A stretch of 64,000 nucleotides of DNA from an uncultured Cryomorphaceae bacterium. GTDB lineage: Bacteria; Bacteroidota; Bacteroidia; Flavobacteriales; UBA7430. The position numbers and the translations under genes were made by a program. Location: NCBI GenBank assembly GCA_902551855.1, contig CACDER010000002.1, forward strand, positions 2,916-66,915, given 5' to 3'. This document shows positions 8,753-48,634 of the stretch, in pieces. Numbering within the stretch: the first letter of the stretch is position 1; each line of letters opens with the position of its first letter. The notes beneath the pieces are model-generated. The model was not told the DNA's origin, did no database searches, and was given only the letters and a program-made list of their open reading frames with translations.

Positions 8753-8809
8753 TTTTAAAATTAATTTTTTAAATTCGTAGATAACTAGGATATAACTTAA
8801 AAATCATAA

Positions 8810-24003: not shown

Positions 24004-24510
24004 ATGAAAAAAACAATTTTAATACTGTCGATTTTTAGTTTCATTTTCTCAACAAATTTATTTTGCCAAAATAAGTTTGGACATATTCATTCTGAAAAAC
24101 TACTAATGCTTATGCCTGAAACTGTTGAGGCTGAAAAAAAAATTCAAGAATTTAACAAAATGCTTGAGGAACAACTTCAAACTATGTTTAACGAATACCA
24201 AAATAAAGCTGGAGAATTTCAGGCTAACGAAAGTTTAATGACTAATGTTGTTAGAGAAACTAAGTTAAAAGAAATTCAAGATTTAGAAGTTAGAATCCAG
24301 GAATTTCAACAAACAAGTCAACAAAGTAGCCAAGATAAACGAACAGAAATTTTAGCTCCAATCCTAGAAAAGGCTCAAAATGCAATTGATCAAGTAGCAT
24401 TAGAAAATAATTATACATATATATTTGATATAGCTATTGGTTCTATTGTATACGGTAAAGACTCAAACGATATTACAGAATTAGTTAAATCAAAAATGGG
24501 AATTCAATAA
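24004..24510 (+). CDS. OmpH/Skp-family periplasmic chaperone (second paralogue)
   Basis: 168 aa with the same architecture as the preceding gene. Confidence 0.75.
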   Translation: MKKTILILSIFSFIFSTNLFCQNKFGHIHSEKLLMLMPETVEAEKKIQEFNKMLEEQLQTMFNEYQNKAGEFQANESLMTNVVRETKLKEIQDLEVRIQEFQQTSQQSSQDKRTEILAPILEKAQNAIDQVALENNYTYIFDIAIGSIVYGKDSNDITELVKSKMGIQ

Positions 24511-30456: not shown

Positions 30457-30538
30457 TGCGGATAGAGGGAGTCGAACCCACACACCTTTCGGCACTAGAT
30501 CCTAAGTCTAGCGTGTCTACCAATTCCACCATATCCGC
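30457..30538 (-). tRNA. tRNA-Leu (anticodon UAG)
   Basis: I folded the reverse complement GCGGATATGGTGGAATTGGTAGACACGCTAGACTTAGGATCTAGTGCCGAAAGGTGTGTGGGTTCGACTCCCTCTATCCGCA by hand. The 7-bp acceptor stem is perfect, and the D-arm GGTGGAATTGGTAGACAC is typical of Leu. The anticodon stem is CTAGA/TCTAG with loop CTTAGGA. It has a long variable arm and a T-loop TTCGACT with one U-U mismatch in the T-stem. No CCA is encoded. Confidence 0.9.
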
Positions 30539-35004: not shown

Positions 35005-35397
35005 TTATAATTTTGATTTAATTAATTGTCTAATTTTTTCTAATTCAAGGTTGTCAATTTTTAGACGTTTTTTTGAGAAATTAATATCACTTATTTTGTT
35101 TAAAGGTACAAGGTGGACGTGTGCGTGAGGGACTTCTAAACCCACAACTGCAATTCCAATTCTTTTACATTTAACTGCTTTTTTAATACCAAAGGAAATT
35201 TTTTTTGCAAATAAAAATAAATTTGAATAACTAGGCTCATTTAAATCAAAAATTAAATCAACTTCTTTTTTTGGAACAACTAAAGTATGACCATACGATA
35301 TTGGGGAAATATCAAGAAATGCTATATTGAAATCATCTTCATGAATTATGAATCCGGGTAAATCTTTATTAATAATTTTACTAAATATGGTTGACAT
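35005..35397 (-). CDS. HIT-family (histidine triad) nucleotide hydrolase
   Basis: 'HAHVHLVP' triad. 130 aa. It has a TAATG overlap with the greA stop. Confidence 0.88.
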   Translation of the reverse strand: MSTIFSKIINKDLPGFIIHEDDFNIAFLDISPISYGHTLVVPKKEVDLIFDLNEPSYSNLFLFAKKISFGIKKAVKCKRIGIAVVGLEVPHAHVHLVPLNKISDINFSKKRLKIDNLELEKIRQLIKSKL

Positions 35398-35870
35398 TAT
35401 CTTGAAATATTTAATATTTTAAATTTAATCTTACCAGCAGGGACTATTATTTCACAAGTTTCTCCAACTTTTTTACCAAGTAACCCTTTACCAATTGGTG
35501 AATTAATTGAAATCTTGCCTTTTTTAAAATCTGCTTCAGTTTCTGCAACCAAGGTATAGGTAATTATATTATTGTTATTTAAATTCTTGATTTTGACTTT
35601 ACTAAGAACTAGAACTTTATCTGAATCAAGTTGTGACTGGTCTATGACTCTAGCTCCAGAATACATTTCCTCTAGCTTAGCAATTTTCATTTCTAATAAA
35701 CCTTGTGCTTCTTTTGCAGCATCATATTCAGCATTTTCTGATAAATCACCTTTATCCCTTGCATCAGAAATTTGCTGAGATATATTTGGTCTTTCAACAA
35801 ATTTTAAGTGATCTAATTCTTTTTTAAGTTTTTTTAGACCTTCTTCTGTATAGTAAGATATTTTAGACAT
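35397..35870 (-). CDS. greA: transcription elongation factor GreA
   Basis: 'ARDKGDLSENAEYDAAKEAQ' coiled-coil finger plus a C-terminal FKBP-like domain. 157 aa. Confidence 0.92.
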   Translation of the reverse strand: MSKISYYTEEGLKKLKKELDHLKFVERPNISQQISDARDKGDLSENAEYDAAKEAQGLLEMKIAKLEEMYSGARVIDQSQLDSDKVLVLSKVKIKNLNNNNIITYTLVAETEADFKKGKISINSPIGKGLLGKKVGETCEIIVPAGKIKFKILNISR

Positions 35871-35939: not shown

Positions 35940-37013
35940 TTACAAAGCTAATCTTACACCGATTGAATTGGGAGAAGATAATGGATTTGCCATTCTATAT
36001 GAATAATCTAATCCAAAAGAAGAATCATCACTTAAAGGAATTTCAAATGATAATCCGAAATTTAATCCGGTAAATGCAGTTGCCCTACCTCTATTAAATT
36101 CTTTATTAATTCCTTCTTCATAAACATAACCTGATCTTAACATAAATAAAGATTTATAATTATATTCAAATCCTAGTCCAAATTGATCTTTTGAAAAAGA
36201 GTTAGATGTAAAACTTGAAGCTAATGTAACTGAATGTTCAGAGTCTAGTGTAAAATCATATGAAGCTCCAATATTTAGAGATGAAGGAATTTCAAAGGAT
36301 TCTACTCTTAAATCATAAGTCATGGCATAATTTTGACCGTGAGAAGTAGTATTTTCGTTTCTTACATCATTTCCATCACCAGAATATTGCATTTTTGGGC
36401 CAACGTTCTTAAGAACAATACCAAATTTAATTTGTCTTTTGTCTCCAGTAACATATTGAACCCCAGCATCAATTGCAACTCCAGATGCCTTCAGATCTGA
36501 TATACTCTCTGATATCATTCTTACTGTTGAACCACATGAAATATTATCGGTAAACTTTTTTGCATATGAGAAACCTATATTTATGTAGGATGGTGAATAA
36601 AATGCTCCGGTTCCTTCTGGTTGTTCTGTTGTAGTTATCTCAATTTCTCCAAATGCCATTGACATAACTGATAATCCAATTACAGTTTGATTATCAAGTG
36701 ATTTAGCAAATCCAAAAGCGTTAATGTTTATATCAGAAAACCAATTAGTTGAGGAGAAGATTAGTTCAGTATTTGATGTACCTGTTAAACCGGCTACATT
36801 CAGATATGTGGACTCCAAACCACTTACATTAGCAATATTTATGCTACCCCAACCTGATGACCTAGCCCATGGATTAATTAATAGTTCTGTTGCTCCAGCT
36901 TGTCCTGATCTTTGTTCATTTCCTGCTAAAACATTTGAAGAATAATTTAAGACTATAAACAATATAGAAAAAATTATATAGGTTTTATTTTTATTGATAA
37001 TATTTTTATTCAT
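35940..37013 (-). CDS. PorV/PorQ/FadL-superfamily outer-membrane beta-barrel protein (PorV paralogue-like)
   Basis: After a signal peptide, the N-terminal hallmark 'QAGATELLINPWARSSGWGSINIANVSGLESTYLNVAGL' follows the pattern G.A..L.I.p.AR..g.G...A...g.....N.AGL. The rest is amphipathic strands throughout. It lies 27 nt downstream of the 1340-aa gene. Confidence 0.6.
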   Translation of the reverse strand: MNKNIINKNKTYIIFSILFIVLNYSSNVLAGNEQRSGQAGATELLINPWARSSGWGSINIANVSGLESTYLNVAGLTGTSNTELIFSSTNWFSDININAFGFAKSLDNQTVIGLSVMSMAFGEIEITTTEQPEGTGAFYSPSYINIGFSYAKKFTDNISCGSTVRMISESISDLKASGVAIDAGVQYVTGDKRQIKFGIVLKNVGPKMQYSGDGNDVRNENTTSHGQNYAMTYDLRVESFEIPSSLNIGASYDFTLDSEHSVTLASSFTSNSFSKDQFGLGFEYNYKSLFMLRSGYVYEEGINKEFNRGRATAFTGLNFGLSFEIPLSDDSSFGLDYSYRMANPLSSPNSIGVRLAL

Positions 37014-37040
37014 ATGAAAGTTAAACTAAATATGTTAATA

Positions 37041-40000
37041 TTAAAATGAATCTAAGTCAATAGGACGTAAAGCTCCAAACCACTTTAAAACCTTTTGACC
37101 TAAATCACCAGCATCAATGTGAACTATATATACTCCTGAAGCTATAGCCACATTGTCATTATTTTTTAAATCCCAGTCCCACCCAGTAACATTTATATCA
37201 CTATCTAAACTTACTTGTCTAATTAAGGTTCCTGATACATTGTAAATAGAAATATTGCATTTTGTGGGCAAATTAGTTATTCTAACTCTTTGATCTACTT
37301 GATCCTTTTCATAATTATTTGAACCATAGTATGGATTTGGTACTATTTTTATAAGATCTAAAGCATTCTTTGCTACTTTATTGTTATTGGTGATAGTTTG
37401 TATATCATTCGTATTAAACTTTAAATGAATATTACCAGAATTTTCAGAAACAACAGATGATTCACATTGTGAGTCATCCATCTGATATTGGTCATATTCA
37501 GTAGAAACTCTAATTTTAACCTCTATTTCTCCATCCGAAATAGTTGCATTTGTTGATGATAACATTGGTATTGAAACCCATCTTGCATCCCTAAAAACTC
37601 TTTTTTTGGAGATAGCTGATGTCATATTTGTTAAGTCATTATAAAATGGGTGATTTTGAGGACTATCACCAGCATATGGACTTCCCATTATGTAGGTGTA
37701 GTGCCTACCACCAAAAATAACATCATATTCAGCATCAGAGCCACTGAATTCACTAAAAAAAGCACCAAACTGATCACCTGAATCAACTCTTGAAGATGGA
37801 TTCCATAACATGTCATCTCCATTATCATTTGGATGATCTGAAGACTCTCCAAACATTATATTTAACCTAATCCCTTTATCTAAATCTATAGCATATCCAG
37901 GAAACCAGGAGAATCCATTTGTACCACTATTATCAGGATTACCAAATTTATCGACTGACGGATTTGACTTCAAACTTAATCTATCATCAACAGTCGCAGT
38001 TTCAATAACCGGACATCTTGTCCACAAAGATTTATCCTCCGTAAAGACTATATCTACTGAAGTTAGATAATCTAATCTACTTTGGAACTGAGCACCTGGA
38101 GCATTATATACAGGTGAGTGAGCAAACGGCTTTTCTTCAGAGTCAGCTCCTACCAAACGATAGGGAGCCCAAACTCCATTTAATATTTTTTCAAATGACT
38201 GACTGTCATCAATTCCAATAAAATCTGTTGAATCAGTTCCTGATCTTATCCAGTTTTCAGGGTAAATAAACCAATCACCAGTTTGGGTTTGAAAAAAATC
38301 TTCGCTATCGTTAATATAATCTAACCAAGATGTTGAATTATCTTTTATTTCTACTGCACTTAAAAAACCATTATTTGAAGATACATCTGTACCATCATCT
38401 CCGGGATTAATTCCGTCTAGTAAAGTTACTGAAAGCCCCCATTCTGGGATTAACTGTTCATTTTTTACTGAAATTACTTGTTCAGAAAATACTGTATCAG
38501 ATAAGGTATTATTAACAAGGATCCATTCTGCATTGCTTCCACTTCCAATTAATTTAAATGTAAATTCTGTATTTTGAGGTACTCCTAGGGGGTCCACAAC
38601 TTTAATATTTACTGGGGCTCCATCAACTGCATATCCTGTTTCAGGTGCACAAAACTGAGTAATTAGTAAATTTTTTGTTTCATCAGAAAGTTCAAGTTCC
38701 AAACCTCCATTTCCAATCCCCTCGATTCTCTTCATATTTGGTATTGTACCATAATCAGAATTTTGAATAGTTCCACCAAATTCAGCATTAGGCTTATGCG
38801 GAATTCCTGTATATTGTTTGATATTTTTTCTTCCTGCTAGAAATGGTTTTTTTTGACCTAATAAACTTGGAGCATAAGGATCATTTGGATCAGGTACTTG
38901 GTCTGGTGAATATTCTAAAAACTCGTTGTAAGCATAGGCTATTGGTAAATAGTAATATGTTTTATTATTTATTAGAGAATTATTCCCTGAAGCAAATAAA
39001 TCTTGTAATATTGAAACACTATGGGATATACCAGAATTTGAAGCTTCAATTGTCATATTTTGGGGAACACTTGCTTGAAGTTCTTGATCAAAATAAAAAT
39101 TAGTCAACTGAGCTATTGGATCATTTCCATCTTCATCTAATGTTACTAAACCATTTGAGTTTTTAAAATTCCTTATATCACATTGAAAAATTAATCTTGC
39201 CTTTTCAACATCATAAACATCTGAAGCAGTTACTGTCTCATCTTTAAGTTGAAATATTTGGTATCCCTCAAAAGAATATTCATTACGAAATGTGTCTGTT
39301 TGAGCTTCATCATAAAAACCTAAAATATTAACTTCATCTGCTTCTAAATATGCTTCCTGATAATTATTAGAAGTGTTAGAATTCGTCAAAGTAATTATTA
39401 GTTCCTTATCTAATTCTTGAATTGTCAAATTAGGAGCATCTGGTCCATCTAAAACTTCAAAACAAACATCGAATAACTTTTGAGCCTTGTCATCAGCAAG
39501 CCTCATAAGTTCAACAGATGCAAATGCCCCTCCTTCATTTGCTCTTGCCCAAACAACTCCTGTGGTAATTGTATTTAATGCGCCTGGTTCAAGAGTAAAG
39601 GGTCCAGCAGATTGAATGAATCTTCTGTCTGCAGGGGGGTTACCTGCAGTTTGTTCAGTCCAAACATCTGAAAACTGAGGATCGGTATCCCCTGGAAACA
39701 TGTAACTACAAGGGATTCCTGATGGATCTCTACCATCTGCCCCATAGGTCATTGGTTGATTATCTAACCAAATTCCTCTTAAATAATTATAATAATCAGT
39801 AGCCACATCTGGATTACCATCAACAGTCCCATTTATATTATTATAATAAACAAATTTTGACATAATTATTTGTTCACCTGGCTCATCAATTTCACCGTCC
39901 CCATCATTATCTAATCCATCATCTTCGTCAGCCAAAGGCCCTCTAAAAAAATCAACCCCTATTGCTGGGGGATTAGAGCCATATCCAACAGCTGTTCCAT

Positions 40001-41063
40001 CATCTTCATCTCCATTGTAACAATAACCCAAACCTCTTTGTACATCACAACCAACATAATCGTCTTGATAATCTCCAAGATCTGGATCTACCCAAACACC
40101 AAACCAGGTTTCATTTAATGGTTGATGTGATCTATTTATAATTTTATAATTATAAAATGTCATATTGTTAATCTCATCGTTAGTTGAGAAAGCAAAAGCT
40201 TGGGCTTGAATTTCAATTCCAATTGATGTTTCAGATTGAGACTCCGTGTGTATGTTCCCGTTATCATTATAGACCCACCAAAGGGTTTGATCACCAAATA
40301 ACATATCAGCTTCTTTACAATTAAGATTTCCATCAATATTATATTCAGGATAATCTCCAGCTAAAGGATCATAGAATCCATCCCCGTTGGCGTCATAAAA
40401 TGGAGCTAAAGACTCTTGAGCATAATAAGGAGCTGTTGAAACTTCAGCGTCATACCCTGAAAACCCACCTTGTAGATTGTCAGTATTTCTATTTCCAGGA
40501 TATTCTAAAATTGATTTAGGAATAGAGTAATCTGGAAAGTCAACAGATGGTTCATCAGAATTTAAATACCCAATAAACTCCTCAACCTCAGTTCTGTATA
40601 TTACATGATGATTATCGTATTGAGCACAAATAGATGCATCAGTAGATCCATAGTTAGGGTTGGGAAATTGATCCTCAGTTAATCTAACATTATCTAGCGG
40701 TCCGGGCCAAAAATCATTACCTGACTGTCTATATGTTTGACCTGCAACTTTTAAATTTCCTTGATCATCTAAACCACCAATCCACAAAGCACCCGCAAAC
40801 ATTGAATGTTTTCCAGAACCTTGAGGAATTTCATATCTTCCATTATTTAAATCCCACCACATGTCACCTCCATTTAAAATTGTGGTCTTAACATTATTAA
40901 TATCCAATAAAGTTTGAGCTGTACCTGCTGCACAATTGAAGGCTAAAGTTTGCAAGGGATTATTAAAATTAGAATTATTTACATTATCATTTTCCTTAGC
41001 TGTTATTATTGTCGAGACTAGAAATAAAAATGTACATAAAAATTTATAATTTAATTTTATCAT
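37041..41063 (-). CDS. 1340-aa secreted acidic protein of unknown function with T9SS-type C-terminal domain
   Basis: Signal peptide without a lipobox. The protein is D/G/N/P-rich and Lys-poor. Conserved-looking blocks are 'GGDMWWDL..GRYEIPQGSGKHSMFAGALWIGG' and 'ADRRFIQSAGPFTLEPG'. A Ca-loop-like run reads 'DEDDGLDNDGDGEIDEPGE'. The C-terminal domain runs 'IVPNPYYG...ISIYNVSGTLI...ASGVYIVHIDAG...KVLKWFGALRPIDLDSF'. I found no HExxH, GxSxG or C25 motifs. Confidence 0.6.
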   Translation of the reverse strand: MIKLNYKFLCTFLFLVSTIITAKENDNVNNSNFNNPLQTLAFNCAAGTAQTLLDINNVKTTILNGGDMWWDLNNGRYEIPQGSGKHSMFAGALWIGGLDDQGNLKVAGQTYRQSGNDFWPGPLDNVRLTEDQFPNPNYGSTDASICAQYDNHHVIYRTEVEEFIGYLNSDEPSVDFPDYSIPKSILEYPGNRNTDNLQGGFSGYDAEVSTAPYYAQESLAPFYDANGDGFYDPLAGDYPEYNIDGNLNCKEADMLFGDQTLWWVYNDNGNIHTESQSETSIGIEIQAQAFAFSTNDEINNMTFYNYKIINRSHQPLNETWFGVWVDPDLGDYQDDYVGCDVQRGLGYCYNGDEDDGTAVGYGSNPPAIGVDFFRGPLADEDDGLDNDGDGEIDEPGEQIIMSKFVYYNNINGTVDGNPDVATDYYNYLRGIWLDNQPMTYGADGRDPSGIPCSYMFPGDTDPQFSDVWTEQTAGNPPADRRFIQSAGPFTLEPGALNTITTGVVWARANEGGAFASVELMRLADDKAQKLFDVCFEVLDGPDAPNLTIQELDKELIITLTNSNTSNNYQEAYLEADEVNILGFYDEAQTDTFRNEYSFEGYQIFQLKDETVTASDVYDVEKARLIFQCDIRNFKNSNGLVTLDEDGNDPIAQLTNFYFDQELQASVPQNMTIEASNSGISHSVSILQDLFASGNNSLINNKTYYYLPIAYAYNEFLEYSPDQVPDPNDPYAPSLLGQKKPFLAGRKNIKQYTGIPHKPNAEFGGTIQNSDYGTIPNMKRIEGIGNGGLELELSDETKNLLITQFCAPETGYAVDGAPVNIKVVDPLGVPQNTEFTFKLIGSGSNAEWILVNNTLSDTVFSEQVISVKNEQLIPEWGLSVTLLDGINPGDDGTDVSSNNGFLSAVEIKDNSTSWLDYINDSEDFFQTQTGDWFIYPENWIRSGTDSTDFIGIDDSQSFEKILNGVWAPYRLVGADSEEKPFAHSPVYNAPGAQFQSRLDYLTSVDIVFTEDKSLWTRCPVIETATVDDRLSLKSNPSVDKFGNPDNSGTNGFSWFPGYAIDLDKGIRLNIMFGESSDHPNDNGDDMLWNPSSRVDSGDQFGAFFSEFSGSDAEYDVIFGGRHYTYIMGSPYAGDSPQNHPFYNDLTNMTSAISKKRVFRDARWVSIPMLSSTNATISDGEIEVKIRVSTEYDQYQMDDSQCESSVVSENSGNIHLKFNTNDIQTITNNNKVAKNALDLIKIVPNPYYGSNNYEKDQVDQRVRITNLPTKCNISIYNVSGTLIRQVSLDSDINVTGWDWDLKNNDNVAIASGVYIVHIDAGDLGQKVLKWFGALRPIDLDSF

Positions 41064-41087
41064 AATTTAAAAGAGTTTTTTTTAAAA

Positions 41088-44000
41088 TTAAAAGTCAAAC
41101 ATTAGACCAAGCCTTATTGTTCTTGGTCTTGTAAAATTACTAGGATTATTTAGCTTCACGTTATATAAGTCAGCAAATGAAGCAGGGCTTAATTGGTCTT
41201 GAATATCATTCACACCAACTGCAGTAGATAAATATCCATCATCATCAGGATTACCAGTAAACTGGTAAACGTTCACAATATTCGCGGTATTTAGTATATT
41301 TTGAACTTGTAGATAAATATTCATTAAACCTGAATTTTTGCTGTCTTCATTACCCCAATAAATATTGAAGCTTTTATTTAGTCTTAAATCTAACCTGTAA
41401 GTCCAAGGCAATCTTGAACCATTAATTGTCCCTTCTAAGTAAGCTCTATTATTAATTCCAAACATTGCTTCTCTGGTTGCATTTAATTGCCTACTGTAAG
41501 GAGTTCCTGATCCTGCAGTAGCTATCAAATTTACTCCCATGTTTGCTAATATTTCTCTACCATTAACAACAGGTCCATTGTATGATCTTCCAGATCCATA
41601 TCTAAAATCTAAAACTGTAGTAATATTGTGTCTTTGATCATAATCAAGTGGTAATGTAGTTCTTAGATTCGGTTGTTCAGAAGTAACAATATTTGCCCCT
41701 GAGGTTGCATTTGAACCTGATCCATCTGCAAATTGCATAGTATAATTTGCATTTATAGTTACATTTTTTGTTCTTCTTAATTCATAAGCAAGTGAAAGCC
41801 CTTTCACAGTTCCAAAATCGATATTTCCATATGTAAAATATTCTATAGGAAATGCATAAGGAATTCTCGTATATTGAATCATATCTCTCATTTCTCTATA
41901 AAAAGCATTTATTGTTAGGGCTGAACTAGATGATAGTGCTTGTTTAAATCCGATTTCATAATTAGTAGTTTTTTGAGGTTTTAAATTTGGATTGAATACT
42001 GAACTAGTAGTTTTGTAAGCTAAAAATAAGTAATCCAGTGGATTCATTCTATTTCCTGAAGGTCTTTGTGTTAAAACATCGTAATAAGCGTAAAACATAG
42101 CTTGATCTGATATAGGAAAATTAAAAGAAATCCTAGGCATAATTGTTACTTGAGGAATATAATCTTCAAATGCATCAGCTGACAAACCCTTGTTAAGTGC
42201 ATCATCCCCATCAAGTAATGCTTCGGGATTAGCTAGCATTGGTAAAACTCCTTTGGAAACATTTAAAATGTTAGGATCATTAATTGGTAACCCCTCTGCA
42301 TCATACCAGTTTTCACCATTTCTATATCCAGTAATTGAACTTGGATTTGAATTATCATTTACATATACTACATAATCGGAACCAATATTAGATGGATGAG
42401 TTCCAAATTGAGAAACTTCACCAGCTGTCAAAACATTATATATTGAATATGGATCTTTTAAAACTTCTTGATTTGCATCATACCTATCTACCCTAACACC
42501 GATATTAAAAATTAAATCTTTAAATGCAAATTTATCTTGAATATATCCAGCAACATAAATTGGTTGAAAGGCACCTATTTCTCTTTTATAATTTCCATTT
42601 TCGTCTTTATCAGTTAAAAATTCATTCATTCCTGGTTGGACACCATCAATTAAATTTCCTTGATAATCATACCCATACCACGAAGCATAATTTGAACCAT
42701 TATTTAGAAGTCCGTCAGGGCTAAACATTCCAATATCTAATGAATTAGGATTGAAAGTATGAATATCAACATACTGATTGAAACTAATACCTTGAGAATT
42801 TCTAAAATTTTGGGCAAAACTCGACATTTCATCATAATTATACAGATTTTGTCTTCCCAATAAATATCCAGAAGGATCTTGATCAAGTAAAAACTCGTAT
42901 GCACCCGAGTTGAGTTGAATATAATTATTTACTTTTTGTTCAGCCAGAGTCCATAGTCCAATTGGACTTACCCCATAAAATCTATCATCCCTTTGCTCAT
43001 ATTCAAATCCAAACTGAATAGCATGATCATTAATATCTGCTGAAGCAGATCCAGTAAATCTGAACTGAGAGTTATTATTTTTTGAATAACCATTATATTC
43101 TCTACCTGTATTAAACCATATGGAGTAAACATCATCAGTTCTATCTCCATTCACTGCGGCACCAATTGAAGTGATTTGATCCAAGGTACTTATCGATAAA
43201 TCATTATAGTTCATAAAATCAAAGTATGATTGTGTATAGTTTTCAGTAAATGGATTAACTCCACCAGACTGAAACTCATAATTTGTTATAACCTCAGTAC
43301 CAAGCTCAAAATCTGAGTCTACAAATCCATTTTCGTTAAAGTAACCCATCACAACGTCATACATTGTATCACCTGAAGAAGGATTATATATATTTAAAGT
43401 ATATGTTAAATTTCCTAATGAATCTACTTCATTTGTCTCCCAATCTGAAGGAGTCTCTTTTACTAGTTCTCTAATTGGTGAAAATCTACCAACATAACCA
43501 TAATTAAAAAGTTTATCTTTATGATCAGCGTCTTGCTCTAAATAAGTATCTTTGGAGTAATCAGCTTGCAGTGTAAAATATGCATTTTTAATTGCTGAAG
43601 CAGATTGTTCACCATCAGTTGATCCAAAACTTTGTTGAAATCTTGCGTAAACTCTCCAATCTTCATCAATAAATTCAGGATTATTTTGAGGATTAAATAA
43701 TGAATACGTATATACACTTCCTCTACCTTTATTACTGGTTAAATTACCACCGATTGTAACATTGGTATTCAAACTTGGTTTAAAATCAATTTTACCCTGA
43801 ATTCTTGCATTTCTACTTTCTACATTTTGTCTAACATCAATTTTTTCTAAATCATTTAAGGTTATGAATTCTGAGGCTCTTTTTGATTGAGGTAAACCAT
43901 TTTGAATTGAGAATATTAATGGATTTTCTTGTAATTCAGTTAATACATTATCTTTAACTTTATAAATATCAGCTGCGGAAGGATCACCATCATCTTGAGA

Positions 44001-44831
44001 TTGGTACTCACCAGATAAAAAGAAACCTAAAATTGAATTCCCATCTTCTTTTTTTAGAAGGGGTCCAGAAAGATTAAACCCTAATAAATTATATCCATAA
44101 GGATCCAACAATTTCGAGGTTACAGCTTCTACTCCACCAAAAAACTCATTTGAGGGGCCTCTTGTAGTGATACTTATTATTCCACCTGTAGCATCTCCAT
44201 ATGCAGCAGGTAACCCACCAGTAATAACAGTCATTTGTTCTATAGCAGATTGTGGTAAAGAGTTTGATCCCCTAACTTTAATTCCATCTATGTAGTAAAA
44301 TGTTGCATCAGACCTTGCTCCTCTAACATTTAGTGAAGACCCTTCATCCTCTTGATATATTCCAGCAGTTTGTGCAGCTACTGACTGAACATTTCTTGTT
44401 GGTAAAGCAGTTATTTCTTCTTTTGTCTTTGTAGTACCTGATTTATCTGGATCAATCAAAGGAACTACATACTCAACAAGCTCGACTTCACCTAGAACTT
44501 CACTTTCAGTTTTTAAACCAGCATTAACAAAAGTAATTTTATTGGATGTTACAATAACATCTCTTATTTCTTTAGAGGCAAATCCAATAAATGAAACTTT
44601 AACTGTATAACTACCTGGATCTATTGGTTTTATAGTATATTCTCCATCAAAGTCCGCGACAGCTCCTCCAACAATAACCCCATTTAACTCAATAACTATA
44701 TTTGCCATAGGAATAGGTTCTGAGGAATCATTTTCAGTAACTTTACCTTTTAAAGTTCCAGATTGAGACTGGGAAAAACTTGAATATGAAAAACCAAACA
44801 GTAATATTGTGGTGAGTAATTTTCTAAACAT
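41088..44831 (-). CDS. TonB-dependent receptor with N-terminal carboxypeptidase-regulatory-like domain (1247 aa)
   Basis: Signal peptide, then the CarboxypepD_reg-like segment 'TLKGKVTE...DGEYTIKPIDPGSYTVKVSFIGF'. The plug carries 'LNVRGARS..YYIDGIKV' and 'GGLPAAYGDATGGIISITTRG'. The long barrel ends 'TIRLGLMFDF'. Confidence 0.85.
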   Translation of the reverse strand: MFRKLLTTILLFGFSYSSFSQSQSGTLKGKVTENDSSEPIPMANIVIELNGVIVGGAVADFDGEYTIKPIDPGSYTVKVSFIGFASKEIRDVIVTSNKITFVNAGLKTESEVLGEVELVEYVVPLIDPDKSGTTKTKEEITALPTRNVQSVAAQTAGIYQEDEGSSLNVRGARSDATFYYIDGIKVRGSNSLPQSAIEQMTVITGGLPAAYGDATGGIISITTRGPSNEFFGGVEAVTSKLLDPYGYNLLGFNLSGPLLKKEDGNSILGFFLSGEYQSQDDGDPSAADIYKVKDNVLTELQENPLIFSIQNGLPQSKRASEFITLNDLEKIDVRQNVESRNARIQGKIDFKPSLNTNVTIGGNLTSNKGRGSVYTYSLFNPQNNPEFIDEDWRVYARFQQSFGSTDGEQSASAIKNAYFTLQADYSKDTYLEQDADHKDKLFNYGYVGRFSPIRELVKETPSDWETNEVDSLGNLTYTLNIYNPSSGDTMYDVVMGYFNENGFVDSDFELGTEVITNYEFQSGGVNPFTENYTQSYFDFMNYNDLSISTLDQITSIGAAVNGDRTDDVYSIWFNTGREYNGYSKNNNSQFRFTGSASADINDHAIQFGFEYEQRDDRFYGVSPIGLWTLAEQKVNNYIQLNSGAYEFLLDQDPSGYLLGRQNLYNYDEMSSFAQNFRNSQGISFNQYVDIHTFNPNSLDIGMFSPDGLLNNGSNYASWYGYDYQGNLIDGVQPGMNEFLTDKDENGNYKREIGAFQPIYVAGYIQDKFAFKDLIFNIGVRVDRYDANQEVLKDPYSIYNVLTAGEVSQFGTHPSNIGSDYVVYVNDNSNPSSITGYRNGENWYDAEGLPINDPNILNVSKGVLPMLANPEALLDGDDALNKGLSADAFEDYIPQVTIMPRISFNFPISDQAMFYAYYDVLTQRPSGNRMNPLDYLFLAYKTTSSVFNPNLKPQKTTNYEIGFKQALSSSSALTINAFYREMRDMIQYTRIPYAFPIEYFTYGNIDFGTVKGLSLAYELRRTKNVTINANYTMQFADGSGSNATSGANIVTSEQPNLRTTLPLDYDQRHNITTVLDFRYGSGRSYNGPVVNGREILANMGVNLIATAGSGTPYSRQLNATREAMFGINNRAYLEGTINGSRLPWTYRLDLRLNKSFNIYWGNEDSKNSGLMNIYLQVQNILNTANIVNVYQFTGNPDDDGYLSTAVGVNDIQDQLSPASFADLYNVKLNNPSNFTRPRTIRLGLMFDF

Positions 44832-44993
44832 AAACTTAATTATTGTTCTATTAGTTTAAAAAAACCAATATTAATTTATTAATATAATTTGCGAATATAA
44901 ACCATATATTTCGAATTCAAAAATTTGTTTTGTAAAGAGTAGTTTTTGTTTTTGTAATTTTTAATACATAATTTAATGACAAATTAGTTTAAG

Positions 44994-45413
44994 TTGATTA
45001 AAAGTAATCATTTAATATTATTTATAATATTGTTGAATCTTTGTTGTAACAAAGATGAATTCAATTTTCCTGATACAAATGTTAATTTTTTTGTTTATCC
45101 CAATAACCCATCCAGTGAGGGATTACACTTTCCAGGTGGAACATTAAATATTGAGGGGGGGGTAAATGGAATAATAATTTTTCATGATTACCTTGACAAC
45201 TATATTGCATACGACAGGGCTTGTACAAATAATCCTCTTTTAAGCTGCGAACAAGTAGATCTAGATGCTGAAAGTATTAATATACTAAAATGTAATTGTT
45301 GCCCATCGAATTATTTAATATTTGATGGGTCTGTAGTAAATGGTCCAGCTCAAAATTCGTTGAAGAGATATAACACATCATTTGATGGGATAGTATTGAG
45401 AATTTTCAACTAA
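44994..45413 (+). CDS. small lipoprotein with degenerate Rieske-like fold (metal ligand His residues absent)
   Basis: TTG start, with signal/lipobox-like 'ILLNLCC'. 'GIIIFHDYLDNYIAYDRACTNNP' and 'LKCNCCPSNYLIFDGSVVNGPAQNSLKRY...GIVLRIFN' align to the Rieske boxes C-x-H and C-x-x-H. Asn replaces His in both boxes. Confidence 0.45.
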   Translation: MIKSNHLILFIILLNLCCNKDEFNFPDTNVNFFVYPNNPSSEGLHFPGGTLNIEGGVNGIIIFHDYLDNYIAYDRACTNNPLLSCEQVDLDAESINILKCNCCPSNYLIFDGSVVNGPAQNSLKRYNTSFDGIVLRIFN

Positions 45414-45419
45414 ATATCA

Positions 45420-46736
45420 CTAATATCTGTATTCGTCTCCTTTGTATGGACCACTTACATTTACTCCAATGTACTTTGCTTGTTCTTTTGATAAAATATC
45501 TAGTTCAATTCCTAACTTTTGTAAATGAAGTCTAGCTACTTTTTCGTCTAAATGTTTTGGTAAAGTGTACAATTTATTATCATATTTACTGAAATTATTC
45601 CAAAGCTCAATTTGTGCTAAAACTTGGTTAGAAAAAGAAGTAGACATAACGAAAGAAGGGTGCCCAGTTGCACAACCAAGATTCACCAGTCTTCCTTCAG
45701 CAAGCAAAATTATATTTTTACCCTCAACAACATACTTGTCAACTTGAGGTTTAATTTCAATTTTGGAAGATCCGAAATTTTTGTTTAACCAACTAACATC
45801 AATTTCATTATCAAAATGACCAATATTACAAACAATAGTATTATCTTTCATTTTAATAAAATGATTTGCAACTACAATATCTTTATTTCCTGTTGCAGTA
45901 ACAACAATATCAGCTTCAGAGACAGCATTAATCATTTTTTTAACTTCAAAGCCGTCCATACACGCTTGTAAAGCACATATTGGATCAATCTCTGATATTA
46001 TTACTCTTGCTCCAGCACCCCTTAATGATTCTGCAGAACCTTTTCCAACATCACCATATCCAGCAACTACTGCAACTTTACCTGCTATCATAGAATCAGT
46101 TGCCCTTCTTATGCCATCAACTAAAGATTCTCTACAACCATATTTGTTATCAAACTTAGATTTTGTAACCGAGTCATTAACGTTGAATGCTGGAATTAAT
46201 AAATTTCCATTTTTTTGCATCTCATTTAGTCTCAAAACTCCAGTTGTGGTCTCCTCAGAAAGACCTTTAATATTTTGGATTAACTCTGGATATTTGTTAA
46301 ATACCATACTAGTTAAGTCTCCACCATCGTCAAGAATAAGGTTCAATGGTTTTTTTTCCTCACCAAAAAACAAAGTCTGTTCGATACACCAATCAAATTC
46401 TTCGTCATTCATTTCTTTCCATGCAAATACTGAGATTCCTTCTTTAGCAATCGCAGCAGCAGCATGATCTTGTGTAGAAAATATATTACATGAAGACCAC
46501 TGAACTTCAGCCCCAAGCTCAACTAAAGTTTCAATTAATACTGCTGTCTGAATTGTCATATGAAGACAACCAGCAATTCTAGCACCTTTAAGAGGTTTTT
46601 TTGATGAATATTCTTTTCTCAATGACATTAAACCAGGCATCTCTGTTTCAGCCAATTTGATTTCTTTTCTTCCCCATTCAGCAAGGGAAATGTCTTTTAC
46701 TTTGAAATTTATTTTTTTTGTAGGGATATCACTCAT
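45420..46736 (-). CDS. ahcY: adenosylhomocysteinase
   Basis: '[15 protein letters not shown]', the NAD-binding 'AGYGDVGKG' and the C-terminal '[10 protein letters not shown]'. I prefer the ATG at 46736 (438 aa) to the TTG at 46763. Confidence 0.95.
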
Positions 46737-46796
46737 AATTATTACATTAGCATTATTTTGCAAATTTATTTCTTTTTTACTTTGATTTTGAATTTT

Positions 46797-47411
46797 ATGA
46801 GAGAAATTTTAAATAAAAAATTAAATATTTACAATATAATTTCGATTTGGGAATACTTTCCTGAAGAAATCGACATTAAAAAATTAGAACTATCAAAATC
46901 AGTTAAATATAGAATACAATTGATTAGTTCAGAAAAAAAACAAAAAGAGCATGCTGTTACTTCAATTATTTTAAATAAAATATTTAAATCTAAAGTTGAT
47001 TTATGGCATAACTCTTCTGGTAAGCCCTTTATTAATAAATCTAAAAATATATCTATCTCTCATTCAAATAATTATGTAGCTATTGCTTATGGAAAAAAAA
47101 ATATTGGCATAGATATAGAAAGACCTCAAACTAGAATTATAAATATTTGCAAAAAAATTTTATCAAAAAAAGAAATTGATATATTAGGTCACTTCCCAAA
47201 TAAAATAAATGCTTGTAAATTTTGGTCAGCAAAAGAAGCAATATTTAAGTTTTTTGGCGAAAAGAATATAAATTTCAAAAATGATATTGACTGTTCAGAT
47301 TTTAATTCTTCTAGATGCAATAAAAAAGAATTTAAAATTTTTTTTGAATACATAAATGATTATATTGTAACGTATTGTCTAAGAAAAACACCTTTAAATA
47401 AACTTAAATGA
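46797..47411 (+). CDS. 4'-phosphopantetheinyl transferase (Sfp-type)
   Basis: Motifs 'SGKPF', '[11 protein letters not shown]', 'IGIDIE' and '[10 protein letters not shown]'. I prefer the ATG at 46797 to the TTG at 46758. Confidence 0.8.
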
Positions 47412-48634
47412 AATTCAATAAATTTTCTATTTTATTTCTAATAATTACTCTAAATTATTCTTTTTCTTTTTCACAAATACATTCAATTGAAAAGATTCAT
47501 AGTTTGTCTAAATCTGACCTAAAGAAAATTTGGAAAAAAAATAATATACCCTCTCTTATATGTCCTATCAACAATCCTTTAGAAGTATATAAAATTAAAT
47601 ATTATACAAGTTGGATTGACAATTCTAAAATTATTGCCTCAGGATTATATTATAAACCTAAAACAAATTACCCTGTTTCTACAGTAATTTATCACCATGG
47701 AACTAAAATTATAAAAAAGTCTTCTAATGAGATTAATGGTGAAAATATAGCGTCTTTAATTTTTGGAGTAGATGGCTACGCAGTTATATCTCCCGATTAT
47801 ATTGGACTTGGTGAAGGTGAAAAAACACATTTATATTGTAACAAAGAATCTGAAGCAAGAGCTTGTATTGATTTTTTGAATGTTACAGATGAGATAAATA
47901 ATTTAATCAATTTGAAAATAAATGACGATATATTTATAACAGGTTATTCTCAAGGAGGTCATGCTGCAATGTCGACACATATGATTTTAGAAAGAGATTA
48001 TATTGATAAATATAACATCAAAGGGTCATCACCCATGTCAGGCCCATATGATTTAGCTGGTATTCAAAGTGAAATTGCTTATAAAGATTATTCTAGGCCA
48101 TTTTATTTACCTTATCTTCTTCTTGGATTTAATATTGAATATAAAATATGGACAACTGAAGACTTTTTTGGAATATTCAAAGAGGAGTATCAAGCTAATG
48201 TTAGAAAGTTATTTGATAATTCTAATAATATCAATAAAATCAATAATCTTCTCCCAAAAATTCCTATACTAATGTTAAAAGATTCTTTTGTTAATGAATT
48301 TAAATCTAATGAGAATTTTCCCCTACACAAATATCTTAAGGATAATAGTGTTTATGATTGGAAGCCTATTGCCCCAACTCAGTTATGTTTTTGTGAAAGC
48401 GATGAAAAAGTATTATATGAAAATTCAATTTTAGCATACAATACATTTAAAAAAAATGGTAGCAAATTTTTGAAATTAAAATCAGCTGGCAGAAACTACA
48501 ACCACAACTCCTGCGCAGGGCCTGCATTAGTTTATTCAAAAGTTTTTTTTGATAAAAAAAGATCAAATAAAAAAAAGTTTATTAGTCCAACTTTGCAAAA
48601 GATTTTTTTGCGAGTATATTCTTTACTTAATTAA
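47408..48634 (+). CDS. secreted alpha/beta hydrolase (lipase/esterase-like)
   Basis: Signal peptide and the nucleophile elbow 'GYSQGGHAA' (GxSxG). It has an ATGA overlap with the PPTase stop. Confidence 0.6.
   Translation: MKFNKFSILFLIITLNYSFSFSQIHSIEKIHSLSKSDLKKIWKKNNIPSLICPINNPLEVYKIKYYTSWIDNSKIIASGLYYKPKTNYPVSTVIYHHGTKIIKKSSNEINGENIASLIFGVDGYAVISPDYIGLGEGEKTHLYCNKESEARACIDFLNVTDEINNLINLKINDDIFITGYSQGGHAAMSTHMILERDYIDKYNIKGSSPMSGPYDLAGIQSEIAYKDYSRPFYLPYLLLGFNIEYKIWTTEDFFGIFKEEYQANVRKLFDNSNNINKINNLLPKIPILMLKDSFVNEFKSNENFPLHKYLKDNSVYDWKPIAPTQLCFCESDEKVLYENSILAYNTFKKNGSKFLKLKSAGRNYNHNSCAGPALVYSKVFFDKKRSNKKKFISPTLQKIFLRVYSLLN

What the first reader, a model, noticed from the sequence alone, without database searches (positions are those of the whole stretch)
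35940..44831. Tight three-gene outer-membrane operon: oversized TonB-dependent receptor, 1340-aa T9SS-tailed protein and PorV/FadL-like barrel, a candidate undescribed surface/uptake system
Three co-oriented minus-strand genes are separated by only 24 nt (41064-41087) and 27 nt (37014-37040).
- Gene 1 is a 1247-aa TonB-dependent receptor with a CarboxypepD_reg-like N-domain, a plug and a barrel ending ...LMFDF.
- Gene 2 is a 1340-aa acidic, non-lipoprotein secreted protein with a T9SS-type C-terminal domain and no catalytic motif I can recognise.
- Gene 3 is a 357-aa barrel with the PorV/PorQ/FadL N-terminal hallmark.

This layout is none of the described Bacteroidota arrangements. It is not SusC/SusD, because no SusD-like lipoprotein follows the receptor. 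It is not porU-porV, because the large protein lacks C25 peptidase motifs. It is not the type-B-CTD cargo plus PorP/SprF pairing, because the barrel lacks the PorP/SprF N-terminus.

It is the only accessory-looking block in an otherwise housekeeping window. My hypothesis is that the big protein is exported by the T9SS and held at the surface by its own PorV-like partner. There it could act as the extracellular binding or lid component of the receptor, a SusD-independent capture-and-import machine.
Basis: partly seen in the sequence, partly recalled or inferred. Interest (0 to 1): 0.8.

Follow-up and report, generated by a model that had tools for sequence, protein, structure and literature searches.

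The report
Conserved receptor, secreted protein, anchor operon
Three tightly packed outer-membrane genes (an oversized TonB-dependent transporter, a 1340-residue protein exported by the type IX secretion system and a PorV/PorQ-like barrel) are a real, ancient gene trio kept together across many orders of Bacteroidota; no paper I could search describes it, and it probably forms a surface capture-and-import unit whose cargo is unknown.

Summary

- **Gene 1** is a true 22-strand TonB-dependent transporter with about 450 extra loop residues. It is not SusC-type.
- **Gene 2** has only a borderline type-A T9SS C-terminal domain (CTD) and no other Pfam or NCBIfam domain. Its confident AlphaFold model finds only a weak beta-supersandwich match. 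The family is huge (7630 clusters at 50% identity).
- **Gene 3** is a PorV/PorQ-family barrel that fails the PorV, PorQ, PorV2 and PorP ortholog cut-offs.

The decisive test, synteny, passes. In about 68 of 80 related genomes from several orders the three genes keep the same order, strand and short gaps.

The block is not accessory: ahcY, greA, a HIT gene and ruvC are syntenic with it too.

The CTD of gene 2, with an extra nearly invariant tail (KWFGxxRPxDLxxF), is as conserved as its core. This suggests it is retained and bound by gene 3, as PorZ is by PorQ.

A physical link to the transporter, and the ligand, remain inferred. No description of the trio was found in the literature searched. 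I rate it a new variant of known kinds, with moderately high interest.

The parts
44891..44923 (-). Promoter-like element upstream of gene 1. It has a -33-like TTTG (44921-44918), an 18-nt spacer and a -7-like TATATTCGC (44899-44891), which starts 68 nt before the start codon.
   Evidence: Sequence. The same arrangement (TTTG, then TATATTTAC[G/C]) lies mostly 40-68 nt upstream of the gene 1 start in 19 of 59 loci. The 8-mer ATATTTAC occurs in 19 loci against 1.2 expected from shuffles. The match to the Bacteroidota TTTG / TAnnTTTG promoter type rests on my own knowledge. Function was not tested.
41088..44831 (-). Gene 1: a 1247-aa TonB-dependent transporter. Its parts are a signal peptide, a CarboxypepD_reg-like N-terminal domain (residues 26-116, 44484-44756), a conserved VE(V/L)xEY segment (a possible TonB box), a plug (residues 130-218, 44178-44444), and a 22-strand barrel with about 450 residues of extra loops.
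   Evidence: Pfam hits. The AlphaFold model of residues 111-1247 has pLDDT 77.8 and pTM 0.79. Foldseek against the PDB matches PirA, PfeA, PhuR, FhuA, XusA and others at E 1e-24 to 1e-20, with target TM 0.55-0.77 and query TM about 0.4. There is no SusC/RagA NCBIfam hit. The family keeps a length of 1194-1267 aa in nearly all of the 120 best full-length homologues.
41064..41087 (.). 24-nt junction between gene 1 and gene 2.
   Evidence: In 65 related trios the measured gaps are mostly under 70 nt, with a median of about 24 nt. No terminator-like site lies in the junction.
37041..41063 (-). Gene 2: a 1340-aa acidic secreted protein of an unannotated family. It has a signal peptide (residues 1-22, 40998-41063) and a mostly beta body that includes a DNDGDGxIDEPGE acidic loop.
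   Evidence: Translation. There is no Pfam or NCBIfam domain outside the C-terminus in 20 family members. The AlphaFold model of residues 23-1222 has pLDDT 85 and pTM 0.69. Foldseek against the PDB gives only partial hits (query TM 0.08-0.16), mostly glycoside hydrolases and phosphorylases of the GH94/GH65/GH116/GH63 type. More than 6790 90%-identity clusters were found, and 7630 50%-identity clusters.
37044..37373 (-). C-terminal domain of gene 2 (residues 1231-1340). It is a type-A-like T9SS sorting domain followed by a roughly 10-residue extension. The tail KWFGALRPIDLDSF covers residues 1327-1340 (37044-37085).
   Evidence: TIGR04183 scores 23.0 bits at its cut-off of 23, over residues 1261-1321. 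Por_Secre_tail is found in 9 of 20 relatives. Mean conservation is 0.70 here against 0.67 for the best core segment and 0.39-0.53 elsewhere. The tail is nearly invariant in the syntenic copies. The only PDB match is the CTD of PorZ (5m11), at E 0.023.
37014..37040 (.). 27-nt junction between gene 2 and gene 3.
   Evidence: In related trios the gaps have a median of about 20 nt.
35940..37013 (-). Gene 3: a 357-aa PorV/PorQ-family outer-membrane barrel. It belongs to a subfamily distinct from PorV, PorQ, PorV2 and PorP/SprF.
   Evidence: NF033709 scores 163 bits (cut-off 90). PorV NF033710 scores 85 against 250, PorQ NF033711 85 against 220, PorV2 55 against 325, and PorP 16 against 90.6. The family profile matches F. 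johnsoniae PorV (6h3i_F) at E 9e-19, with weak hits to TodX and TbuX. It is present directly after gene 2 in 68-69 of 80 loci.
35005..35870 (-). Context only: greA (35397-35870) and a HIT-family gene (35005-35397) directly downstream on the same strand. They are conserved neighbours of the trio and not proposed parts of the system.
   Evidence: NCBIfam. greA follows gene 3 in 64 of 80 loci and the HIT gene in 62 of 80. The median gap between gene 3 and greA is about 80 nt.

Best explanation
This is an ancient, vertically inherited outer-membrane operon of the Bacteroidota that encodes three parts of one surface module.

**Shown here**
- Gene 1 is a genuine TonB-dependent transporter of the classical 22-strand fold, with very large extra loops.
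- Gene 2 is a Sec-exported, non-lipoprotein, 1340-aa protein with a type-A-like T9SS sorting domain.
- Gene 3 is a PorV/PorQ-family barrel that is not the PorV or PorQ orthologue.
- The three genes are kept in this order, with gaps of a few tens of bases, across several orders.

**Inferred**
1. Gene 2 crosses the outer membrane through the type IX secretion system.
2. Its unusually conserved C-terminal domain and extra tail (RPxDLxxF) are not cut off. They stay bound to the gene 3 barrel, which holds the protein on the cell surface, as PorQ holds PorZ and PorV holds PorU.
3. There the large beta-rich protein captures, and perhaps processes, an external ligand. The weak supersandwich resemblance hints at a glycan or another polymer.
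4. It hands the ligand to the neighbouring transporter for TonB-powered import. It thus takes the place that a SusD, BtuG or XusB lipoprotein takes in other Bacteroidota transporters.

The ligand is unknown.
For: **Synteny**
- The same order and strand of the three genes is seen in about 68-70 of 80 loci. By submitters' labels these come from Cryomorphaceae, Crocinitomicaceae, Schleiferiaceae, Parvicellaceae, other Flavobacteriales, Bacteroidales, Lentimicrobiaceae and Chitinophaga-labelled genomes. Amino-acid identity is 38-73%.
- Median gaps are about 24 and 20 nt.
- The trio recurs in independent long contigs.

**Promoter**
- A promoter-like element is conserved upstream of gene 1, and the two junctions are too short to hold one.

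**Location**
- All three products are outer-membrane or surface proteins.

**CTD of gene 2**
- It is as conserved as the core of the protein (0.70 against 0.67) and carries an extra near-invariant tail.
- Its only PDB match is the retained CTD of PorZ.

**Gene 3**
- It aligns over its full length to the PorQ model and over its N-terminal half to PorV, yet it is neither.
- A review states that the PorZ and PorU CTDs are retained and bound to PorQ and PorV, and it suggests that cognate PorV-like barrels protect CTDs from cleavage (PMC10202324).

**Duplications keep gene 2 next to a partner**
- Tandem second copies sit inside the cluster in L004, L052, L056 and L077.
- One contig carries gene 1 with gene 2a at one site and gene 2b with gene 3 and greA at another (L062 and L065).
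- The one clade of partner-less copies (L049, L053, L069) has a diverged tail.
Against: - No physical interaction was tested. AlphaFold-Multimer is not available here.
- greA, the HIT gene, ruvC and ahcY, which are functionally unrelated, are almost as syntenic. Conserved adjacency may therefore partly reflect a generally frozen gene order.
- There is no clue to the ligand. No riboswitch lies upstream in the window or in 7 loci, no binding or catalytic domain was recognised, and the fold matches are weak (query TM 0.08-0.16).
- The CTD call sits exactly at the model's cut-off.
- The high conservation of gene 2 (45-50% identity across orders) is more typical of an enzyme or a machine part than of a SusD-like binding protein.
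- Some gene 2 paralogues live without either partner.
- CTD retention is an analogy, not an observation.
Confidence: 0.45

Rival explanations
1. Only genes 2 and 3 work together. Gene 2 would be a T9SS-exported surface protein (adhesin, coat protein or enzyme) held by its own PorQ-like anchor. The transporter next door would import something unrelated and be adjacent only through old gene order.
For: - The link between gene 2 and gene 3 has a mechanistic precedent in the CTD-binding PorV family.
- The link between gene 1 and gene 2 rests on adjacency alone.
- Unrelated genes (greA, HIT, ruvC, ahcY) are also syntenic.
- In L065, gene 2b, gene 3 and greA occur without gene 1.
Against: - The gap between gene 1 and gene 2 is as short (median about 24 nt) and as conserved as the gap between gene 2 and gene 3.
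- In the split case, gene 1 kept its own copy of gene 2 (L062).
- The promoter-like element lies upstream of gene 1 only.
- The size of gene 1 and its long loops are conserved along with the trio.
Confidence: 0.25
2. Genes 2 and 3 are lineage-specific parts of the type IX secretion machinery itself: an alternative PorZ/PorQ-like or PorU/PorV-like attachment or sorting module, rather than cargo plus anchor.
For: - Gene 3 is about the length of PorQ and aligns end to end with the PorQ model.
- The CTD of gene 2 resembles only the CTD of PorZ among solved structures.
- The trio is retained in a very A+T-rich, apparently streamlined genome in a housekeeping neighbourhood.
- Gene 2 is strongly conserved.
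Against: - Gene 2 has no C25 peptidase or PorU model hit, and no match to the PorZ body.
- Several genomes carry two or three gene 2 paralogues, which is unusual for a core machine part.
- The conserved transporter would be left unexplained.
- Gene 3 scores far below the PorQ cut-off (85 against 220).
- Whether these genomes also carry canonical porQ, porZ, porU and porV could not be checked.
Confidence: 0.1
3. The transporter-like protein works outward, as reported for the Myxococcus Oar protein (my own knowledge), or serves as an assembly platform. On this view gene 1 helps to export or mount gene 2 protein rather than import a ligand.
For: Gene 1 is large and has a CarboxypepD_reg N-terminal domain, as Oar-type receptors do (the comparison is from memory). 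No nutrient-type regulation or riboswitch was found.
Against: - Gene 2 carries its own T9SS export signal.
- Gene 1 has a normal plug and classical transporter fold, closest to siderophore, haem and cofactor importers.
- No Oar-type Pfam model was hit.
Confidence: 0.05
4. This is the ordinary case the first reader feared: gene 3 is simply the housekeeping PorV, or gene 2 is PorU, sitting beside unrelated genes.
For: porU and porV are adjacent in known Bacteroidota, and PorU is of similar length (my own knowledge). Gene 3 does belong to the PorV family.
Against: - The PorV equivalog model scores 85 bits against a cut-off of 250 and covers only the N-terminal half.
- Gene 2 has no Peptidase_C25 or PorU hit even at E 0.01-0.1, in the window protein and in 19 relatives.
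- The trio, including the transporter, is conserved as a unit.
Confidence: 0.03

Closest known systems
PorZ-PorQ and PorU-PorV pairs of the T9SS attachment complex (P. gingivalis, F. johnsoniae)
   Same: A T9SS-exported protein with a type-A CTD that is not cleaved is held at the surface by a PorV-family 14-strand barrel (PMC10202324). Gene 3 is a PorV/PorQ-family member. The CTD of gene 2 is conserved like a binding module, and its only PDB match is the CTD of PorZ.
   Different: - The body of gene 2 is unrelated to PorZ (beta-propellers) and to PorU (C25 peptidase).
- Gene 3 fails both ortholog models.
- The pair is encoded together and with a TonB-dependent transporter.
- The CTD carries an extra conserved tail.
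- Retention of the CTD has not been shown here.
Type-B CTD cargo with an adjacent PorP/SprF-like barrel (for example sprB-sprF)
   Same: A large T9SS cargo gene is followed immediately by the gene for its own dedicated PorV-like barrel, which is needed for secretion or anchorage (PMC10202324).
   Different: The CTD here is type-A-like, not type B. The barrel is of the PorV/PorQ family, with a PorP/SprF score of 16 bits against a cut-off of 90.6. A transporter gene is part of the unit.
TonB-dependent transporters with a surface partner in Bacteroidota (SusC-SusD, RagA-RagB, BtuB-BtuG, XusA-XusB)
   Same: A transporter gene is followed directly by the gene for a surface-exposed partner that captures ligand. 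The gene 1 model matches XusA and classical transporters, and gene 1 has the N-terminal CarboxypepD_reg-like domain common in Bacteroidota transporters.
   Different: - The partner is not a lipoprotein and not SusD-like.
- It would reach the surface through the T9SS and need a third protein as anchor.
- Gene 1 is not in the SusC/RagA family and is about 450 residues larger than the solved classical transporters it matches.
Cytophaga hutchinsonii chu_1276-chu_1280 atypical polysaccharide utilisation locus
   Same: It is an outer-membrane uptake cluster in a Bacteroidota member that lacks the SusC/SusD pair and uses other surface binding proteins (PMC12016534).
   Different: - It has five genes, including SGBP-B-like binding proteins and an endoglucanase.
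- The paper mentions neither the T9SS nor a PorV-like barrel.
- It is reported only in Cytophaga and Sporocytophaga.
BamG-BamH of the Bacteroidota BAM complex
   Same: A FadL/PorV-like barrel holds a large extracellular protein through its loops (PMC12578637; PMC12611786).
   Different: The trio proteins show no sequence or fold match to any BAM complex chain among the PDB hits returned. bamG and bamH are not adjacent in F. johnsoniae (Fjoh_1412, Fjoh_0823) and are part of BAM.

Membership tests
TonB-dependent transporter (gene 1) | Plug domain (PF07715) and TonB-dependent beta-barrel (PF00593) above the Pfam cut-offs | tested here: met
   Plug scores 41.4 bits (cut-off 23.9) and the barrel 54.5 bits (cut-off 27). 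The family profile hits the plug of the colicin I receptor Cir at E 2.9e-12.
TonB-dependent transporter (gene 1) | 22-strand barrel enclosing the plug (fold) | tested here: met
   The AlphaFold model has pTM 0.79. Foldseek against the PDB gives 206 hits at E <= 1e-3, and all 50 listed are TonB-dependent transporters, with target TM 0.55-0.77.
TonB-dependent transporter (gene 1) | TonB box and energy dependence | tested here: inconclusive
   A conserved VE(V/L)xEY segment lies between the N-terminal domain and the plug. Function is not testable here.
SusC/SusD-type polysaccharide utilisation locus | SusC/RagA-family transporter followed by a SusD-like lipoprotein | tested here: not met
   No SusC/RagA NCBIfam model is hit at E <= 0.01. 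The PDB profile hit to a SusC homologue covers only the N-terminal domain. The next gene has no SusD domain and no lipoprotein signal.
T9SS type-A cargo (gene 2) | N-terminal Sec signal plus a C-terminal type-A sorting domain (TIGR04183 / PF18962) | tested here: met
   The signal sequence is visible. TIGR04183 scores 23.0 bits against a cut-off of 23, which is borderline. PF18962 is found in 9 of 20 relatives at E down to 2.8e-4.
T9SS type-A cargo (gene 2) | Dependence on the T9SS for export, and the fate of the CTD (cleaved or retained) | not testable with these tools
   This needs proteomics or genetics. Retention is inferred from conservation.
PorU (T9SS sortase) | Peptidase C25 domain / PorU NCBIfam model | tested here: not met
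   No such hit at E <= 0.01 in the window protein or at E <= 0.1 in 20 family members. No such fold match appears in the top Foldseek list.
PorV/PorQ superfamily (gene 3) | NF033709 / PF19572 above cut-off | tested here: met
   163.1 bits against 90, and 40.6 bits against 27. The profile matches F. johnsoniae PorV at E 9e-19.
PorV orthologue (housekeeping shuttle) | Equivalog model NF033710 above 250 bits over the full length | tested here: not met
   85.1 bits, and the best stretch covers residues 23-215 only. Whether a canonical porV exists elsewhere in the genome could not be checked.
PorQ orthologue | Equivalog model NF033711 above 220 bits | tested here: not met
   85 bits, although the alignment runs over the full length (residues 18-357).
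PorP/SprF family | TIGR03519 above 90.55 bits | tested here: not met
   16.3 bits, E 0.005.
BamG/BamH | Sequence or fold similarity to the BAM subunits, whose structures I take to be in the PDB copy searched | tested here: not met
   Profiles of gene 2 and gene 3 give no BAM chain among PDB hits. None appears in the top 50 Foldseek hits for gene 2.

The most novel reading that the evidence does not exclude
A Bacteroidota-wide, three-protein outer-membrane import machine. Its TonB-dependent transporter would get its extracellular capture or lid component not from a lipoprotein but from a large protein delivered by the type IX secretion system. That protein would be docked through its uncleaved C-terminal domain on a dedicated PorQ-like barrel. 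This would be both a third kind of CTD-barrel pairing and a new way of equipping a transporter.
Probability: 0.35. Interest if true: 0.8.

Novelty: new variant of a known kind. Interest (0 to 1): 0.62.

Why it matters
- **A large unknown family.** Gene 2 stands for a very large protein family (7630 clusters at 50% identity, about 1200-1700 residues) with no domain annotation and no fold relative. Its partners are conserved at 40-50% identity across orders. The trio survives even in this very A+T-rich, apparently streamlined genome. A system this widespread and this conserved is likely to matter for how aquatic, soil and gut Bacteroidota feed or build their surface.
- **A link between two research fields.** If the model is right, it connects type IX secretion with TonB-dependent uptake. 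It would also show that PorV-family barrels serve as dedicated anchors beyond the secretion machinery itself.
- **A defined target.** It gives a concrete three-gene unit for cryo-EM, genetics and metaproteomics.

Tried and rejected
- **PorU-PorV reading.** Rejected: gene 2 has no C25 or PorU hit, and gene 3 scores far below the PorV cut-off.
- **SusC/SusD locus.** Rejected: no SusC-family or SusD hits.
- **PorP/SprF pairing.** Rejected.
- **BamG/BamH.** Considered because a FadL-like barrel holds a big extracellular protein there. Rejected for lack of any sequence or fold match.
- **Horizontally acquired island.** The block has higher G+C (0.31-0.35 against about 0.22-0.29 in most of the rest of the window). 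Rejected, because the whole neighbourhood is syntenic across orders. The G+C excess more likely reflects protein constraint.
- **Gene 2 as a glycoside hydrolase or phosphorylase.** Only a partial match to such enzymes was found (query TM 0.08-0.16), and the model is almost all beta, so no alpha-helical catalytic domain is evident. Not supported.
- **Riboswitch as a clue to the ligand.** None found in the window or in 7 loci. The weak 'greA leader' hit (E 0.55) is chance level.
- **Sigma-70 promoter and terminator scan.** Counts were equal to those from shuffles, so it was uninformative.
- **C. hutchinsonii chu_1276-1280.** A different system.
- **Literature searches.** The searches on the trio's components found no description of it. 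One of them was spoiled because 'greA' matched 'great'.
- **Named cultured carriers.** Cluster look-up and contig look-ups returned only metagenome-derived records.

Full report
**1. The observation**

They are separated by 24 and 27 nt. The window has about 25% G+C. The block itself is the most G+C-rich part, at 0.31-0.35.

HMM scans confirm every domain call.
- **Gene 1** has a CarboxypepD_reg-like N-terminal domain, a Plug and a TonB-dependent barrel.
- **Gene 2** has nothing except a C-terminal T9SS type-A sorting domain, which scores exactly at the model's cut-off (TIGR04183, 23.0 bits against 23). It also has a related weak FlgD_ig hit.
- **Gene 3** is a PorV/PorQ-family protein (NF033709, 163 bits against a cut-off of 90). 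It fails the ortholog-level models for PorV (85 against 250), PorQ (85 against 220) and PorV2 (55 against 325), and the PorP/SprF family model (16 against 90.6).
- Gene 2 is acidic (pI 4.14). Its family has no conserved cysteine in the signal region.

**2. The genes one by one**

*Gene 1.* An AlphaFold model of residues 111-1247 (pLDDT 77.8, pTM 0.79) matches classical 22-strand transporters such as PirA, PfeA, PhuR, FptA, FhuA, BtuB and XusA. E values are 1e-24 to 1e-20, and TM is 0.55-0.77 when normalised to the targets but only about 0.4 when normalised to the query. The protein is therefore a normal plug-and-barrel with roughly 450 extra residues, placed in long structured loops. A family profile hits only plugs and N-terminal domains in the PDB, not SusC barrels. 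No SusC/RagA model is hit. Nearly all of the 120 best full-length homologues are 1194-1267 aa long.

*Gene 2.* It has more than 6790 homologous 90%-identity clusters. An exhaustive search finds 7630 50%-identity clusters at E <= 1e-3, most of them 1200-1700 aa long. Twenty diverse members carry no Pfam domain outside the C-terminus. A confident model of residues 23-1222 (pLDDT 85) is almost all beta. In the PDB it finds only partial, low-TM matches (query TM 0.08-0.16), mostly to glycoside hydrolases and phosphorylases of the GH94/GH65/GH116/GH63 type. From my own knowledge of those enzymes, the shared part is probably their N-terminal beta-supersandwich. It finds no PorU, PorZ or BAM subunit. 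A profile search of PDB sequences gives only the CTD of PorZ, at E 0.18 with the whole profile and 0.023 with a CTD-only profile.

*Gene 3.* As a family profile it matches F. johnsoniae PorV at E 9e-19, and FadL-type TodX and TbuX weakly.

**3. The decisive test: synteny**

One scan of species-representative genomes with a gene 2 profile gave at least 594 confirmed loci, of which 80 were kept.

- tblastn and ORF clustering show gene 1, gene 2 and gene 3 in the same order and on the same strand in about 68-70 of the 80 loci. Identities to the window proteins are 38-73%.
- By the submitters' labels these loci come from Cryomorphaceae, Crocinitomicaceae, Schleiferiaceae, Parvicellaceae, other Flavobacteriales, Bacteroidales (including rumen genomes), Lentimicrobiaceae and Chitinophaga-labelled genomes. 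Some labels are plainly unreliable; one is labelled Bifidobacterium.
- Gaps stay short, with medians of about 24 and 20 nt.
- Two independent long contigs repeat the arrangement, with Pfam-annotated neighbours.
- The closest genomes are marine Cryomorphaceae-like assemblies: CM1_5m.P23, MED-G21 and binchicken_co317_24.

**4.

The block is not accessory.
- greA follows gene 3 on the same strand in 64 of 80 loci and a HIT gene in 62 of 80. ruvC follows on the other strand in 39 of 80.
- In the two long contigs checked, ahcY lies upstream of the trio as in the window. A phosphopantetheinyl transferase lies beside it in one and ribF a few genes away in the other.
- The whole region is thus an old, vertically inherited gene order. 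Conserved adjacency alone is weaker evidence of a shared function than it first seems.

Several points nevertheless argue for a real unit:
- The much tighter spacing inside the trio, compared with a median of about 80 nt before greA.
- The shared outer-membrane location of the three products.
- A promoter-like element (TTTG, about 18-21 nt, then TATATTTAC) mostly 40-68 nt upstream of gene 1 in 19 of 59 loci, including the window.
- The behaviour of duplicates. Extra gene 2 copies arise inside the cluster (L004, L052, L056, L077). On one contig the unit has split into gene 1 with gene 2a at one site and gene 2b with gene 3, greA and HIT at another. Gene 2 has thus stayed beside each partner.

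**5. The C-terminal domain**

Across 82 sequences the CTD of gene 2 (residues 1231-1340) is as conserved as the best core segment: 0.70 against 0.67, with 0.39-0.53 elsewhere. It extends about 10 residues beyond the end of the type-A model, with the nearly invariant tail KWFGxxRPxDLxx(F/Y).

From my own knowledge, sorting signals that are simply cut off are usually the least conserved part of T9SS cargo. A conserved CTD fits a domain that is kept and bound.

The published precedent is PorZ-PorQ and PorU-PorV, where an uncleaved CTD stays bound to a PorV-family barrel. The same review speculates that cognate PorV-like barrels protect CTDs (PMC10202324).

Partner-less gene 2 copies are of two kinds:
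- recent paralogues of trio copies, which keep the tail;
- one separate clade (L049, L053, L069), whose tail has diverged.

This is consistent with the tail being tied to the partners. It amounts to a single evolutionary event, however.

**6. Most likely mechanism**

*Shown:* a classical transporter, a T9SS-signalled large protein and a non-orthologous PorV/PorQ-family barrel, encoded as a conserved and probably co-transcribed unit.

*Inferred:*
1. Gene 2 protein is exported by the T9SS.
2. It keeps its CTD and is docked on gene 3 protein.
3. It works at the surface with the gene 1 transporter to capture, and possibly process, a ligand for TonB-dependent import.

The ligand is unknown. The weak supersandwich resemblance and an acidic DNDGDGxIDEPGE loop hint at a glycan or another polymer and at calcium binding, but this is speculation. 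No riboswitch gives a clue. I put about 0.65 on the cargo-anchor pairing and about 0.4-0.45 on the full three-part import unit.

**7. Rivals**

- **Genes 2 and 3 pair up and the transporter is independent (0.25).** This is the main alternative because of the frozen gene order.
- **A lineage-specific part of the secretion machinery (0.1).** This fits the PorQ-like length and the PorZ-like CTD. It does not explain the transporter or the multiple paralogues.
- **An outward-acting or scaffold role for the transporter (0.05).** Nothing specific supports it.
- **Housekeeping PorV/PorU (0.03).** The model scores contradict it.

**8. Comparison with the known**

The trio combines two known principles:
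- a T9SS protein held by a dedicated PorV-family barrel;
- a Bacteroidota transporter with an adjacent surface partner.

I could not find this combination described. The full-text searches on its components returned nothing on it. The nearest atypical systems, the C. hutchinsonii chu_1276-1280 locus and BamG-BamH, are different. The library lacks most subscription-journal papers, so 'undescribed' is provisional. All homologues seen carry only generic names such as hypothetical protein, 'T9SS C-terminal target domain-containing protein' or 'carboxypeptidase regulatory-like domain-containing protein'.

**9. Verdict**

- Novelty: a new variant of known kinds.
- Interest: 0.62. This is a very widespread, strongly conserved, wholly unannotated outer-membrane unit that gives a clear experimental target. 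Its mechanism is still inferred from gene order and analogy.

Noticed in passing
window 35005-35870 and 45420-47411; L081, L084: The order ahcY, small ORF, trio, greA, HIT, ruvC is kept between the window and relatives of gene 2 that are only 48-52% identical. A phosphopantetheinyl transferase lies beside ahcY in the window and in L084, and ribF lies nearby in the window and L081. This is an unusually deep conservation of gene order around functionally unrelated genes.
   Followed up: partly
L004 13445-17491; L052 13243-17310; L056 2848-6138 and 7992-12170; L077 1714-5934 and 7836-12041: Some genomes carry a second gene 2 copy in or next to the cluster, 61-75% identical to the first. The second copy in L052 ends early (…KWFGALSE) and lacks the RPxDLxxF tail.
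   Followed up: partly
L062 and L065 (same contig, PACT01000037.1): The unit is split. Gene 1 and gene 2a are followed by an RND efflux pair at one site. At a second site on the same contig a UvrD-like helicase gene is followed by gene 2b, gene 3, greA and HIT. The two gene 2 copies are 83% identical.
   Followed up: yes
L049, L053, L069 (gene 2 homologue at about 7900-11940 in each): This is a separate clade of partner-less gene 2 homologues, two of them from Crocinitomicaceae-labelled genomes. Their C-terminal tail has diverged (…RQIDLNNI, …RLVDTNNL, …RTSDLENI). The neighbouring genes are unrelated (an M28 peptidase, a Kelch-repeat T9SS protein, a MORN-repeat protein).
   Followed up: partly
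window 36001-46000: The trio is the most G+C-rich stretch of the window (0.31-0.35 against about 0.22-0.29 in most of the rest). It even exceeds the atpD region (0.305). The minus-strand coding also gives it a strong negative GC skew.
   Followed up: no
window 20995-23460, and ORFs 23479-23991 and 24004-24510: bamA (TIGR03303, 328 bits) is followed by two ORFs of about 170 aa that were not identified. The Nature 2025 BAM paper notes that two essential T9SS components are encoded at the bamA locus in Bacteroidota.
   Followed up: no
window 44994-45413 (+), 47408-48634 (+), 26314-28395 (+), 15622-16854 (-): The first two ORFs (139 and 408 aa) have no NCBIfam hit at E <= 1e-5. The other two (693 and 410 aa) were scanned only at E <= 1e-40 and had no hit. 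An ORF of about 148 aa on the strand opposite the trio lies upstream of gene 1 in 28 of 80 loci.
   Followed up: no
window 30457-30538 (-): This tRNA gene is the only Rfam match above the gathering score in the whole window.
   Followed up: no
L082 10835-11503; L083 3904-4572: In one lineage a partner-less gene 2 homologue is followed by a small 222-aa protein that also carries a T9SS sorting domain.
   Followed up: no
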